Positions 13,183-18,367 of a stretch of DNA of 41,349 nucleotides are shown piece after piece. The DNA is from Promethearchaeia archaeon. Lineage in GTDB: Archaea > Asgardarchaeota > Lokiarchaeia > Sigyniarchaeales > SOKP01. The notes under the pieces are model-generated. The model saw only the letters and a program-made list of their open reading frames with translations. It made no database searches and was not told the origin of the DNA. The stretch is taken from assembly GCA_029856105.1 (NCBI GenBank), contig JAHQWH010000064.1, forward strand, positions 1-41,349. Direction: 5' to 3'. Numbering within the stretch: position 1 is the stretch's first letter; the number at the start of each line of letters is the position of its first letter. The translations under genes and the position numbers were made by a program.

Positions 13183-13737
13183 TCACGAAAACCTTTGTTT
13201 ATCTCGATATTCTTTAACGGAAACTTCTCGCACCTCTAACCTACTATTTTCTATTAAAGTTTCTTCGATAGCTTTAATTTCATCTCTAGTTTTAATATCG
13301 CTTTTTTTAAGTTTCTCAAGAATTTCTTTTTCTCCTAATCCCTTAGTATAATACTCCCTAAATTTTTCAACAGTCTCCTCGTTGTAAAAAATATAGTGTC
13401 TATTCGTAAAAATAATCAACCAATTCTTCTTGTTTTGCTTTTTCGATAAATGGTGCATCTTTTCTTGGATTTGGGGTAAGGGACGTTTAAGCTTTCTAGC
13501 AACCATTTTATCTTCGATTGAGCTACAATCCGATAAAAATTTTTTAAGTTTTTTATTAAAAAATAGAGTTGGAATGTAAGAAAGGGCAAATAGTACTATA
13601 GTAATAACAGTCATTATTATCGCTGCTAGTGGATAAAATATAAAAACGATAAGAATTGCAATAACAAGAAATATAAACCATTTTCTTCCAATTGTCTTTA
13701 GTGTTTTTACGAATTTGCTAGGCATACAAATCTTCAA
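13183..13737 (-). CDS. Hypothetical membrane protein (two N-terminal TM helices, basic cytoplasmic domain)
   Basis: Hydrophobic stretch at aa ~20-60 in a 184-aa ORF. Confidence 0.65.
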   Translation of the reverse strand: MKICMPSKFVKTLKTIGRKWFIFLVIAILIVFIFYPLAAIIMTVITIVLFALSYIPTLFFNKKLKKFLSDCSSIEDKMVARKLKRPLPQIQEKMHHLSKKQNKKNWLIIFTNRHYIFYNEETVEKFREYYTKGLGEKEILEKLKKSDIKTRDEIKAIEETLIENSRLEVREVSVKEYRDKQRFS

Positions 13738-13808
13738 ATTATGGTTAATTTGTTCTAATTTTATAATTTATGGGTTAAAAAATCGGTATAACCATATAAA
13801 TTACCGCA

Positions 13809-13959
13809 TTCTGGGTTCCCGAACCATCTGTTCGGCAGATTGTTTTTCGGATGTGACCAGGTTTTATCCTGTAATACCATGACCGTAGCCGAAGCTACAG
13901 TTTGCAAGTTCCCATAGACTTTCAACTACAGTACTATTTGCAACGCAAAACAGTTTAAC
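13809..13959 (-). rRNA. rrf: 5S rRNA gene, circularly permuted and intron-containing (exons 13959-13846 and 13815-13809)
   Basis: The 3' half of 5S (GUUAAA, helix V UUGCAA/UUGCAA, loop E AGUA/GAA, helix IV CUGUAG/CUAUGG with GAAA loop, helix I strand CUGUAGC) precedes UUCG and then the 5' half (GCUACGG UCAUG, helix II, AAC CUGG UCACAUCCGAA); all five helices can be drawn. Confidence 0.88.
13816..13845 (-). other. Predicted 30-nt BHB-type intron in 5S rRNA loop C
   Basis: Central helix UCCG/CGGG, 3-nt bulges AAA and AAC, intron stem AAC.AUCUG/CAGAU.GUU; removal restores CCGAAC-CCAG. Confidence 0.7.
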
Positions 13960-14095
13960 TTCCAGGCGAAAAATTTTTTTTTTAAAAAATTTATATGGTT
14001 TATTTTTTTTTCAACAACCATCTTATAAATTCGGCTATATTATTGTAAAATGCTTTCTTTATATGGTTGCAAGTATATAGAGTAGTAAAGACTAG

Positions 14096-16795: not shown

Positions 16796-18367
16796 ATGAC
16801 TAACGATTTAGAAGAGGTTTCAGGAATAGGAAAAGCAACAGCAGACAGGTTGAGAGCGTCTGGCATTGATACAGTTGAAAAATTAGCTTCAACGACTCCA
16901 GAAGAATTAACTAAGTTAAAAATCAAGGGAGTAGGTGAATCTACAGCTTTAAAGTATATTAAGAACGCTCAGAAATTAATTAAAGAAAAACCAAGTGATA
17001 CTAAACCTAAATTAAAGAAAGAAGAAGCTCCACCCAAGCCAGAAAAACATCAAAAACATGAACCAACTAAAAAACAAAAGCCAGTAAAAGGGAGTAATCT
17101 TAAAGAATTAATAAAAAAACAAGCAGAATGTAATATTGGATTAGTGGGTCATGTAGACCACGGTAAGACCACGCTAGTTAAGACCTTAACGGGCGATTGG
17201 ACGGATAGACATTCTGAGGAAATAGAGAGAGGGATTTCGATAAAACTAGGATATTCAAATGCGACTATTCTATACTGCCCTGAATGCGATGAATATCTTA
17301 CATATCATATGGCAGAATCTGCTAGAAAAAAAGGTCAACCAAGATTTGTTTGCCCCAACTGTAAAAAAAATTTAGAGTTTAGAAGAAATATTTCCTTCGT
17401 CGATGCTCCTGGCCACGAAATCTTAATGGCTACTATGTTAAGTGGAGCTTTTTTAATGAATGGCGCGTGTTTACTAATTGCCGCTGACGACGTTTGTCCC
17501 CAGCCACAAACGAGAGAACATTTAGCCGCATTGAATATTGCGGGAATCGAGAATATTATTATCATCCAAAATAAAATTGATGCTGTGTCAAAAGAGCAAG
17601 CGTACGAAAATTATAAGCAAATAAAAGCGTTTGTAAAAAATTCAATTGCTGAAAACGCTCCAATTATACCTATTTCCGCCGTTTTTGGCGTTAATATCGG
17701 TCTGATAGTTCGAGCGTTCGAAGAAATAATACCTTCTCCTAAAATTCGTGAAGATGAAGAATTTCAATTCTTAATTGCTAGATCTTTCGACATAAATCGC
17801 CCAGGCACAGAAATCAGTAAACTACGTGGCGGAGTTATAGGGGGTTCCGTATTAAAAGGTAAAATTAAGGTTGGTGAAGAAATCGAAATTAGACCGGGAC
17901 TTCGAGTTAAGAACGATTTTATACCAATTAAAACTGAAATAGTAAGTATTAGCCAAGGGAATAATCTTTTAGAAGAAGCTAATCTCGGAGGTCTAATTGG
18001 ATTAGGGACTAAATTAGATCCCGCCTTGACAAAGGGAGACTCTCTGATAGGGCATTTGGTTGGCAAAACTAACACATTACCCGAAATTGTTTCTCAAGTA
18101 GAGTTAAAAGTCAACCTTTTAGAAAGAGTAATTGGTTCTGAAATGCAAATAAGGGTTCAACAACTTAAACATAACGAAAAGCTCTTGTTAGTTGTTGGTA
18201 CTGAAAAAACAGCAGGAATTGTTACAAAAATTTTAAAAAATTCATATATTCTAAATTTAAGTCCACCTATTTGCCCTCTTGAGAATTCTATATTTGCGAT
18301 TTCTAGAATTATTAATAGACGTTATCGATTAATAGGATATGGTAAACTTTTTAATCAAAATCAGTGA
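16796..18367 (+). CDS. eif2g: Translation initiation factor aIF-2 gamma with N-terminal HhH domain
   Basis: NIGLVGHVDHGKTT, RGISIKLGY, Zn knuckle, FVDAPGHEILMATMLSGA, PQPQTREH, QNKID, RSFDINRPG, RYRLIGYG. Confidence 0.95.
   Translation: MTNDLEEVSGIGKATADRLRASGIDTVEKLASTTPEELTKLKIKGVGESTALKYIKNAQKLIKEKPSDTKPKLKKEEAPPKPEKHQKHEPTKKQKPVKGSNLKELIKKQAECNIGLVGHVDHGKTTLVKTLTGDWTDRHSEEIERGISIKLGYSNATILYCPECDEYLTYHMAESARKKGQPRFVCPNCKKNLEFRRNISFVDAPGHEILMATMLSGAFLMNGACLLIAADDVCPQPQTREHLAALNIAGIENIIIIQNKIDAVSKEQAYENYKQIKAFVKNSIAENAPIIPISAVFGVNIGLIVRAFEEIIPSPKIREDEEFQFLIARSFDINRPGTEISKLRGGVIGGSVLKGKIKVGEEIEIRPGLRVKNDFIPIKTEIVSISQGNNLLEEANLGGLIGLGTKLDPALTKGDSLIGHLVGKTNTLPEIVSQVELKVNLLERVIGSEMQIRVQQLKHNEKLLLVVGTEKTAGIVTKILKNSYILNLSPPICPLENSIFAISRIINRRYRLIGYGKLFNQNQ

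What the first reader, a model, noticed from the sequence alone, without database searches (positions are those of the whole stretch)
13809..13860. 30-nt intron in 5S loop C leaving a 7-nt micro-exon
Seen: after CUGG UCACA the sequence folds as central helix UCCG/CGGG, bulge AAA, intron stem AAC-A-AUCUG(CCGAA)CAGAU-G-GUU, with AAC on the opposite strand. This is a relaxed bulge-helix-loop motif. Cutting after the second nucleotide of each 3-nt segment removes 13845-13816 and yields CUGG UCACAUCCGAA|C CCAG, restoring the conserved CCGAAC of loop C. The downstream exon is only CCCAGAA (13815-13809). Established: BHB introns are known in archaeal tRNA, 16S/23S rRNA and a few mRNAs; I do not recall one in 5S. 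Inference: two independent splice predictions both land on the consensus sequence, which is unlikely by chance. An unspliced expansion hairpin in loop C is the alternative.
Basis: partly seen in the sequence, partly recalled or inferred. Interest (0 to 1): 0.88.

Follow-up and report, generated by a model that had tools for sequence, protein, structure and literature searches.

The report
Spliced intron in permuted 5S rRNA
This Asgard (Loki-type) archaeon's only 5S ribosomal RNA gene is written back half first and also carries a 30-base tRNA-style intron in its loop C; public RNA data show the intron removed and the 7-base piece behind it joined on both sides, and I found no published report of an intron in any 5S rRNA.

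Summary
Observation confirmed and interpretation supported. On the minus strand, 13959-13846 holds a circularly permuted 5S rRNA: 3' half, helix I capped by UUCG, then 5' half. A 30-nt insert follows (13845-13816), then CCCAGAA (13815-13809).

- **Fold:** the insert forms a relaxed bulge-helix-bulge motif, UCCG/CGGG with 3-nt AAA and AAC segments.
- **Relatives:** many lack the insert and read exactly the predicted joint, CAUCCGAAC-CCGGAA. Twenty-five of 106 family genes carry a 30-31-nt insert at this site. Its sequence varies and its hairpin covaries.
- **RNA:** contigs from two independent studies read ...UCACAUCCGAA-CCCAGAA-GUUAAAC..., so the intron is gone and the micro-exon is joined on both sides. 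One 151-nt contig closes on itself as a 121-nt ring.
- **DNA:** the joined form was not found in 135 family genomes or two large DNA collections. All 19 DNA copies with this exon signature keep the intron.
- **Enzymes:** the genome encodes a catalytic and a His-less EndA paralogue, plus RtcB.

Not shown: that EndA makes the cuts, the order of the two splicings, and whether the ribosomal 5S stays circular. I found no published 5S intron. This scan had already noted permuted, intron-bearing Asgard 5S genes on other DNA.

The parts
14022..14038 (-). Promoter-like BRE/TATA element (ATAGCCGAAUUUAUAAG), kept in the orthologues' leaders
   Evidence: Read. The same ATAGCCGAnnTTATAAnATGGTT block lies upstream in orthologues. 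Promoter function is inferred only.
13988..14000 (-). 5' arm of the 13-bp clamp stem that brings leader and trailer together
   Evidence: It is the perfect reverse complement of 13790-13802. It forms in the minimum-energy fold of the 211-nt precursor, z = -3.4. It covaries in relatives (CCACAU/AUGUGG against CCAUAU/AUAUGG).
13960..13968 (-). Leader strand of the terminal BHB: CGC-CUGG-AA, cut predicted after 13960
   Evidence: CUGG pairs with the micro-exon's CCAG and CGC pairs with the trailer's GCG in the fold. In 68 relatives the 4-bp helix is paired in 68 of 68 and the 3-bp outer helix fully in 64 of 68, with many different pair combinations.
13846..13959 (-). Exon 1 (114 nt): 5S 3' half (13959-13894), UUCG cap on helix I (13893-13890), 5S 5' half (13889-13846) ending in loop C ...UCCGAA
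   Evidence: Put back in normal order and spliced, it aligns end to end with normal-order 5S genes of the sister family and folds into the three-arm 5S shape. It is covered by RNA contigs in X3, X7 and X8.
13816..13845 (-). 30-nt BHB-type intron in loop C (hairpin AAC-A-AUCUG(CCGAA)CAGAU-G-GUU, then CGGG-AA)
   Evidence: Absent from the RNA contigs that read across the joint. Absent from the DNA of many same-genus orthologues, exactly at this point. The hairpin covaries. It occurs once in the genome.
13809..13815 (-). 7-nt micro-exon CCCAGAA (last base of loop C, 3' strand of helix III, AA bulge)
   Evidence: RNA contigs and loose ends read CCGAA-CCCAGAA-GUUAAAC. The CCCA can come only from here, because the leader reads CCUG at the matching place.
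13804..13808 (-). Trailer strand of the terminal BHB (U of the AAU bulge, then GCGG), cut predicted after 13809
   Evidence: The third bulge base varies among relatives (U/A/G/C), as expected if it is discarded.
13790..13802 (-). 3' arm of the 13-bp clamp stem
13777..13782 (-). U6 tract, a likely archaeal terminator
   Evidence: Read. Inferred only.

Best explanation
The 30 nt at 13845-13816 are a genuine intron of the archaeal protein-spliced (bulge-helix-bulge) kind. It sits in loop C of a circularly permuted 5S rRNA gene.

In the precursor, exon bases UCCG pair with intron bases CGGG to form the 4-bp central helix. The 5' cut lies in the AAA bulge, between the central helix and the intron hairpin. 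The 3' cut lies in AAC, between the central helix and the CCAG helix. Cutting after the second base of each segment and ligating restores the conserved loop-C sequence CCGAAC.

The remaining 7-nt exon CCCAGAA is bounded on its other side by a second, terminal BHB made of leader and trailer (CGC-CUGG-AAG with CCAG-AAU-GCG). That splice joins the micro-exon to GUUAAAC, the first base of the 3' half. The result is a 121-nt RNA with a complete 5S sequence, probably a closed ring, because helix I is sealed by UUCG.

Shown: the intron is absent from the RNA and the micro-exon is joined on both sides. Inferred: the cutter is the (alpha-beta)2-type splicing endonuclease and the ligase is RtcB. Also inferred: the two splicings occur one after the other rather than releasing a free 7-mer. 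CCAG can pair either with the leader CUGG (terminal BHB) or with the helix III CUGG (the intron motif's outer helix).
For: RNA:
- X3 (study P2) holds a 151-nt contig, 100% identical to the window, that reads 13921->13846, then CCCA, then 13962->13892.
- X8 (study P4) has two contigs with the same joint. Its loose ends read CCCAGAAGUUAAACUGUUU after 13846 and ACCUGGUCACAUCCGAACCCA before 13962.
- No contig of X3 or X8 was laid on the intron, while X8's exon word depth reaches about 10^5.

DNA controls:
- The doubly joined sequence is in none of 41 same-genus genomes. Among 135 family genomes the only hit has two mismatches and belongs to a gene with the other breakpoint.
- It is also absent from 241 million metagenome records and from the 185,579-species genome set.
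- The intron-less joint with this exon signature is in no family genome.
- All 12 true metagenome contigs and all 7 genomes with this exon signature carry the 30 nt.

Comparison:
- Same-genus orthologues without the insert read CAUCC|GAACCCGGAA.
- 25 of 106 family genes carry a 30-31-nt insert at this site, in four genera.
- In 16 distinct sequences the central helix is 100% paired and invariant, 7 of 9 hairpin pairs change on both sides, and no shuffle of 500 reaches the covariation score.
- The first two bases of the 5' segment (exon) never vary, while the third (intron) varies A/U/G.

Product: the spliced sequence put back in normal order aligns over its whole length with normal-order 5S genes of the sister family and folds as a 5S.

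Machinery:
- One EndA paralogue is most similar to crenarchaeal catalytic subunits (3p1z_B, E 3e-34) and keeps the His.
- A second paralogue has Asp at the catalytic His position.
- RtcB is present at 559 bits.
- A preprint reports two EndA paralogues in 44 of 60 Asgard genomes (10.64898/2026.10.13.758758).
Against: - Contigs cannot give amounts, ends or strand, so a minor intron-retaining fraction in ribosomes is not excluded.
- One low-depth RNA-library contig (X7, depth 2.1) runs unspliced from the leader into the intron. It may be precursor or contaminating DNA.
- The motif is not a strict hBHBh': the 3' site lies in a 5x3 internal loop.
- The minimum-energy fold slips by two A-U pairs, and the BHB register is 1.6 kcal/mol higher.
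- No enzyme assay links EndA or RtcB to these sites.
- How a 7-nt exon is held for two ligations is unexplained.
Confidence: 0.88

Rival explanations
1. The 30 nt are an expansion segment that stays in the mature 5S rRNA as an extra hairpin on loop C, like the retained insertions of Halococcus morrhuae and some Clostridia.
For: Retained 5S insertions are documented. [quoted passage not shown] The insert is a self-contained hairpin, and the unspliced molecule still folds as a 5S.
Against: RNA contigs of two studies lack it and read the exact joint. Nothing was laid on the insert in X3 or X8 despite very deep exon cover in X8. The insert splits the conserved CCGAAC. The intron's CGGG, which pairs with exon UCCG, is invariant and the 3-nt segments are kept across four genera. 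A mere expansion hairpin would not need either feature.
Confidence: 0.03
2. The joined RNA comes from unsampled strains whose DNA lacks the insert, so splicing of this particular intron is not shown. The window's copy could be unspliced or dead.
For: The insert is present in some genomes of the genus and absent from others. The environmental RNA runs hold mixtures of strains: X8 carries a T>C variant at 13896.
Against: The X3 contig is identical to the window over all 147 laid bases. The loose ends carry the UCACAUCC...CCCAGAA signature. Every DNA copy with that signature has the 30 nt: 7 genomes and 12 metagenome contigs. No family genome has the intron-less joint exactly. This is the only 5S gene found in a 92% complete genome.
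Confidence: 0.05
3. The insert is removed by another route, for example RNase III-type excision of an intervening sequence as in bacterial 23S rRNA, or self-splicing.
For: Hairpin intervening sequences cut out by double-strand-specific RNases are known in bacterial rRNA (cited in PMC7812874).
Against: That route leaves the rRNA in pieces, whereas here the exons are covalently joined. Thirty nucleotides are far too few for a group I or group II ribozyme (established knowledge). The conserved geometry, a 4-bp helix between two 3-nt segments, is the signature of the splicing endonuclease, and EndA and RtcB are both encoded.
Confidence: 0.03

Closest known systems
Archaeal BHB introns outside tRNA: 16S/23S rRNA introns of Thermoproteales and Desulfurococcales, and the cbf5 pre-mRNA intron of Crenarchaeota (my own knowledge; BHB definition as in bioRxiv 10.64898/2026.10.13.758758)
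   Same: A short insert in an essential RNA, bounded by a 4-bp helix between two 3-nt segments. It is removed by protein enzymes, and the exons are ligated to restore a conserved sequence. It is present in some relatives and absent from others.
   Different: The host is 5S rRNA, for which I found no published intron. The downstream exon is only 7 nt and is itself bounded by a second BHB. The gene is also circularly permuted. The motif is the relaxed form.
Permuted, circularised SRP RNA of Thermoproteus tenax (Plagens et al. 2015, PMC4731332) and permuted tRNA genes (PMC3218864, PMC3978253, listed)
   Same: The 3' part is encoded before the 5' part. Leader and trailer form a BHB, the splicing endonuclease and ligase join the new ends, and RNA-seq shows the joint.
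   Different: Those genes are not reported to carry a separate intron a few bases from the circularisation site. Here two splicing events share the 4-nt CCAG.
Retained 5S rRNA expansion segments (Halococcus morrhuae, PMC7530397; survey PMC7812874)
   Same: Extra hairpin-forming sequence inside a 5S gene, in some bacteria also in loop C.
   Different: Those inserts remain in the ribosomal 5S. This one is missing from the RNA and carries a splice motif.
Heavily interrupted tRNA genes of Asgard archaea (bioRxiv 10.64898/2026.10.13.758758)
   Same: Same phylum, and the same presumed machinery with two EndA paralogues. Many introns, gained repeatedly.
   Different: That study contains no occurrence of 'rRNA' or 'permuted'. 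This is a non-tRNA substrate.

Membership tests
Archaeal BHB intron (strict hBHBh') | 4-bp central helix between the two cleavage sites | tested here: met
   UCCG (13851-13848) pairs with CGGG (13821-13818). It is paired in 16 of 16 distinct intron-bearing sequences, with pair probabilities of 0.75-0.98.
Archaeal BHB intron (strict hBHBh') | 3-nt bulge at the 5' site, flanked by the central helix and an inner (intron) helix | tested here: met
   AAA (13847-13845) lies between UCCG and AAC/GUU plus AUCUG/CAGAU. In the inner helix 7 of 9 pairs change on both sides and 85% of cells are paired. In the single-sequence ensemble this register is a minority, 1.6 kcal/mol above the minimum.
Archaeal BHB intron (strict hBHBh') | 3-nt bulge at the 3' site, with the outer helix stacked directly on the central helix | tested here: not met
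   AAC (13817-13815) faces UCACA (13856-13852) in a 5x3 internal loop closed by CUGG/CCAG. It therefore belongs to the relaxed (HBh'-like) class. From the literature as I recall it, broad-specificity (alpha-beta)2 and epsilon2 enzymes accept that class (PMC3239211 abstract).
Archaeal BHB intron | Exons ligated precisely, with cuts after the second base of each 3-nt segment | tested here: met
   RNA reads UCCGAA-CCCAG. The register is ambiguous by up to 2 nt because of the A run. Relative L103 (CGGG-AU-C) restores CCGAAC only in the BHB register.
Archaeal BHB intron | Splicing endonuclease and RtcB-type ligase encoded | tested here: met
   Two EndA paralogues are present: G000:C107 with the His, and G000:C12 with Asp at the His position. 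RtcB scores 559 bits.
Archaeal BHB intron | Cleavage by EndA demonstrated | not testable with these tools
   This needs a recombinant enzyme assay or genetics.
5S rRNA (Rfam RF00001) | Matches the covariance model | tested here: not met
   There is no match in the window or the own genome, even at E = 10. This is expected, because the model cannot read a permuted, interrupted gene. The joined sequence could not be given to the Rfam tool.
5S rRNA (Rfam RF00001) | Three-arm fold with conserved loop A, loop C (CCGAAC) and loop E motifs, homologous to normal-order 5S genes | tested here: met
   The spliced 117 nt, put back in normal order, align over the full length (47-56% identity) with sister-family 5S genes that score 54-67 bits on RF00001. 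The minimum-energy fold is the 5S shape.
Retained 5S expansion segment | The insert is present in the mature RNA | tested here: not met
   Spliced contigs occur in two studies, and nothing was laid on the insert in X3 or X8.
BHB-circularised permuted RNA gene (Thermoproteus SRP RNA type) | Swapped halves, a leader-trailer BHB, and an end-to-end joint in RNA | tested here: met
   Gene order. Terminal BHB paired in 68 of 68 relatives (central helix) and 64 of 68 (outer helix). Joint 13809->13959 in RNA. Whether the ring persists in ribosomes was not testable.

The most novel reading that the evidence does not exclude
The working 5S rRNA of this lineage's ribosome is a covalently closed 121-nt ring built from a 114-nt exon and a 7-nt micro-exon by two interlocked tRNA-type splicing events. 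The order of the two events is set by the micro-exon's CCAG switching partner between the leader CUGG and the helix III CUGG. The introns (three sites seen in the family) and the permutation breakpoint (two positions) move over evolutionary time, possibly through reverse-transcribed circular RNA.
Probability: 0.5. Interest if true: 0.9.

Novelty: new variant of a known kind. Interest (0 to 1): 0.76.

Why it matters
5S rRNA is among the most conserved and simplest genes known, and I found no published intron in any 5S rRNA. In these archaea, close relatives of eukaryotes, an essential ribosomal RNA can be made only by the tRNA-splicing machinery. That machinery acts twice within 40 nt and handles a 7-nt exon.

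- **Substrate range:** this widens the known targets of archaeal EndA/RtcB to all three rRNAs.
- **Annotation:** it explains why 5S genes look missing in this family. RF00001 finds nothing convincing in most of its genomes.
- **Evolution and mechanism:** it offers a natural system for studying intron gain and loss and micro-exon ligation. A gene of about 120 nt shows three intron sites and two permutation breakpoints.

It also bears on whether ribosomes can carry a circular 5S rRNA.

Tried and rejected
- **Rfam:** the whole window at gathering threshold and the locus at E <= 10 gave no 5S hit, only chance snoRNA/miRNA hits far below threshold. RF00001 on the own genome gave nothing.
- **ARAGORN:** no tRNA or tmRNA in the window.
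- **Strong RF00001 hits in the family:** the hits in G072 and G015 are bacterial-type 5S genes, probably contamination. I did not use them.
- **Intron copies elsewhere:** searching the own genome with up to 3 mismatches found only the intron itself, so there is no sign of a repeated mobile element.
- **Neighbouring genes:** the ORF at 13183-13737 has no Pfam family. A link between the 5S gene and its neighbours (PAS protein, C25 peptidase) was not pursued.
- **aIF2-gamma (16796-18367):** I checked it for the ~30-nt breaks that an earlier scan note reports in a relative. It is one open frame here with no obvious 10-codon insert.
- **Pattern hit L144:** this is an unrelated coding sequence, a chance match.
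- **RNA-run limits:** contig depth cannot rank spliced against unspliced forms. The lack of cover on the intron in X3 and X8 is counted only together with the contigs that bridge it. X1 is DNA-like and comes from a 90-95% relative, so it says nothing about RNA.
- **Literature:** searches found no paper on a 5S intron, or on a permuted or circular 5S in archaea, beyond low-level, unvalidated 5S circles in Sulfolobus and Halobacterium (PMC3326292).

Full report
**What is there.** The minus strand between 14000 and 13790 holds a 5S rRNA gene written in swapped order.
- The 3' half (GUUAAAC...CUGUAGC) lies at 13959-13894.
- A UUCG tetraloop at 13893-13890 seals what are normally the free ends of helix I.
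- The 5' half (GCUACGGUCAUGG...CUGGUCACAUCCGAA) lies at 13889-13846.
- Then come 30 extra bases (13845-13816), and then CCCAGAA (13815-13809).

Rfam's 5S model sees nothing in the window or in the whole 3.66-Mb, 92%-complete genome, as expected for such a layout. The DNA query found one copy in the genome. Nearby genes include a Ras-family GTPase and aIF2-gamma. GC content is 30-39%. The same-order relatives include single-contig genomes of 4.4 and 6.0 Mb. Together these point to a Loki-type Asgard archaeon.

**The observation.**
- The 52-nt stretch folds with CUGG/CCAG and UCCG/CGGG at high pair probability.
- The exact BHB register lies 1.6 kcal/mol above a minimum-energy fold that slips along the A run.
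- The single-sequence z-score is only -1.7, so one sequence alone would not settle it.
- The motif is the relaxed kind. The 5' AAA is a proper 3-nt bulge, while the 3' AAC faces UCACA in an internal loop closed by CUGG/CCAG.

**Comparative evidence.**
- In 22 same-genus loci the gene is conserved. Two (L020, L022) have the other breakpoint.
- Two other loci (L017, L018) carry a different 30/31-nt insert at the same point, with inner helix GGC/GCU instead of AAC/GUU.
- Across the family I read 106 permuted genes. Twenty-five carry a 30-31-nt insert at this site: g1 9 of 38, g12 11 of 44, g13 4 of 4, g16 1 of 7.
- All 25 are genes whose permutation breakpoint lies after loop C. None of the 28 genes with the breakpoint before loop C has it.
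- On 16 distinct sequences (alignment A1) the outer and central helices are 100% paired, and 7 of 9 hairpin pairs change on both sides.
- 92.3% of cells pair, against 53-57% with partners slid by one column. No shuffle of 500 reaches the covariation score.
- The intron's CGGG never varies, as needed to pair with the conserved exon UCCG. The third base of the 5' segment varies (A/U/G) while the first two never do, as expected if the cut falls after the second base.
- One relative (L103) has CGGG-AU-C, and only the BHB register restores CCGAAC there.

**The other side of the micro-exon.** Leader CGC-CUGG-AAG and trailer CCAG-AAU-GCG form a second BHB inside a 13-bp clamp (14000-13988 with 13802-13790).
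- Both form in the minimum-energy fold of the 211-nt precursor, z = -3.4.
- In 68 relatives the 4-bp helix is paired in all, and the 3-bp outer helix in 64, with at least eight different pair combinations.
- Cutting after the second bulge base joins ...CCCAGAA to GUUAAAC....

**RNA evidence.** Fourteen listed runs hold part of the stretch, twelve of them on record as RNA. Four were laid.
- In X3 (study P2) a 151-nt contig, identical to the window, reads 13921->13846, then CCCA, then 13962->13892.
- X8 (study P4) has two contigs with the same joint. Its loose ends read CCCAGAAGUUAAACUGUUU after 13846 and ACCUGGUCACAUCCGAACCCA before 13962.
- The aligner places GAA on the leader copy, but CCCA can come only from 13815-12, since the leader has CCUG there. 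The RNA therefore reads UCACAUCCGAA-CCCAGAA-GUUAAAC: intron out, micro-exon joined on both sides.
- The X3 contig equals one 121-nt turn plus 30 repeated bases. Either a closed k=31 graph or a read running more than once round would produce this. Both need reads across the UUCG cap and across the new joint, which fits a ring. A mixture of precursor and a differently opened product is not excluded.
- X7 (study P3) holds a low-depth unspliced contig (13966->13820), either precursor or DNA.

**Is the joined form DNA somewhere?**
- No genome of the genus has it. In 135 family genomes the only near match (2 mismatches) is a gene with the other breakpoint type.
- It is absent from the metagenome and species-genome collections.
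- The intron-less joint with this exon signature is in no family genome; the nearest matches differ by one base and belong to other lineages.
- All 12 true metagenome contigs with the signature carry the 30 nt, as do all 7 genomes.

**Product and machinery.**
- The spliced sequence, put back in normal order (117 nt plus the 4-nt cap), aligns over its whole length with the normal-order 5S genes of the sister family. It folds into helices I-V with loops A, C and E.
- The genome encodes an EndA paralogue most similar to crenarchaeal catalytic subunits, with the His kept, and a second paralogue with Asp at that position.
- This fits an (alpha-beta)2 enzyme, the class I recall as accepting relaxed motifs. 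A preprint reports the same pair in most Asgard genomes. RtcB is present.

**Mechanism and what is inferred.**
- Shown: the intron is removed and both joints are made.
- Inferred: EndA cuts and RtcB joins.
- Inferred: the two events are sequential, because a free 7-mer held by four base pairs is an unlikely ligation substrate. CCAG can pair with the leader CUGG (terminal BHB, as in the fold) or with the helix III CUGG (the intron motif's outer helix). Either order is conceivable, and no data decide between them.

**Comparison with known systems and novelty.**
- BHB introns are known in tRNA, 16S/23S rRNA and cbf5 mRNA.
- BHB-circularised permuted genes are known for tRNA and SRP RNA (PMC4731332).
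- Retained 5S expansion segments are known, in bacteria also in loop C (PMC7812874).
- I found no paper on an intron in 5S rRNA, or on a permuted or circular archaeal 5S, apart from low-level, unvalidated 5S circles (PMC3326292).
- I rate it a new variant of a known kind.
- This scan has already noted permuted Asgard 5S genes, some with a 30-31-nt intron, on other DNA. Those notes were leads only. Everything above was tested here on this window.

Noticed in passing
L019, L021, L067, L112, L114, L115, L117, L119-L121, L124-L128, L130-L132 (relatives; not in the window): A second 30-nt BHB-like intron site lies between loop E and helix IV: ...CUGC-AA|A-AGUGC...GCACU-GCAG-AA|U.... It occurs in roughly 20 of 106 family genes. 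Two genes (for example L126) carry both this intron and the loop-C intron.
   Followed up: partly
L146 and L148 (metagenome contigs Ga0114923_10020748 and Ga0209976_10014616): A third site: a 31-nt insert in loop D (UUGA-AA|A...UUAA-AA|G), in genes that also carry the window's loop-C intron. One roughly 120-nt RNA gene therefore has at least three intron positions in this lineage.
   Followed up: partly
L020, L022, L046, L048-L050, L068, L069 and 20 more, against the window: The permutation breakpoint has two positions, even within one genus. One lies after loop C (CCCRGAA|GUUAAAC, as in the window). The other lies before it (CCCGGUC|CCAUCCGAAC). Each has its own leader-trailer BHB.
   Followed up: partly
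window 13835-13830; L017:911-962; L088 (G145): The introns repeat nearby exon sequence. The window's intron loop holds CCGAAC again. L017 has the 11-nt border TCCGAATGGCT twice. L088 has a 31-nt insert a few bases upstream that duplicates GGATAATACCCGGTCCC. This hints that these introns arise by local duplication.
   Followed up: no
L031 (G072:C68) and L043 (G015:C263): These are bacterial-type 5S genes scoring 81 and 52 bits on RF00001, in two family genomes with 5-7% contamination. They are probably foreign contigs, not a second archaeal 5S.
   Followed up: partly
window 16796-18367 (+): aIF2-gamma here is a single 523-aa frame. It has a roughly 105-aa N-terminal helix-hairpin-helix extension and a 13-aa insert in the zinc-knuckle region relative to Pyrococcus aIF2-gamma. 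No 30-nt break of the kind noted by the scan in a relative was seen.
   Followed up: partly
window 14016-14038 (-) and orthologous leaders: A conserved block ATAGCCGAnnTTATAAnATGGTT lies upstream of the clamp stem in most same-genus loci. It is likely the BRE/TATA promoter of a stand-alone 5S unit. No 16S or 23S gene is in the window.
   Followed up: no
window 13820-13966 (run X7): A 151-nt contig in an RNA library runs unspliced from the leader through exon 1 into the intron at depth 2.1. It may be precursor RNA or DNA carry-over.
   Followed up: no
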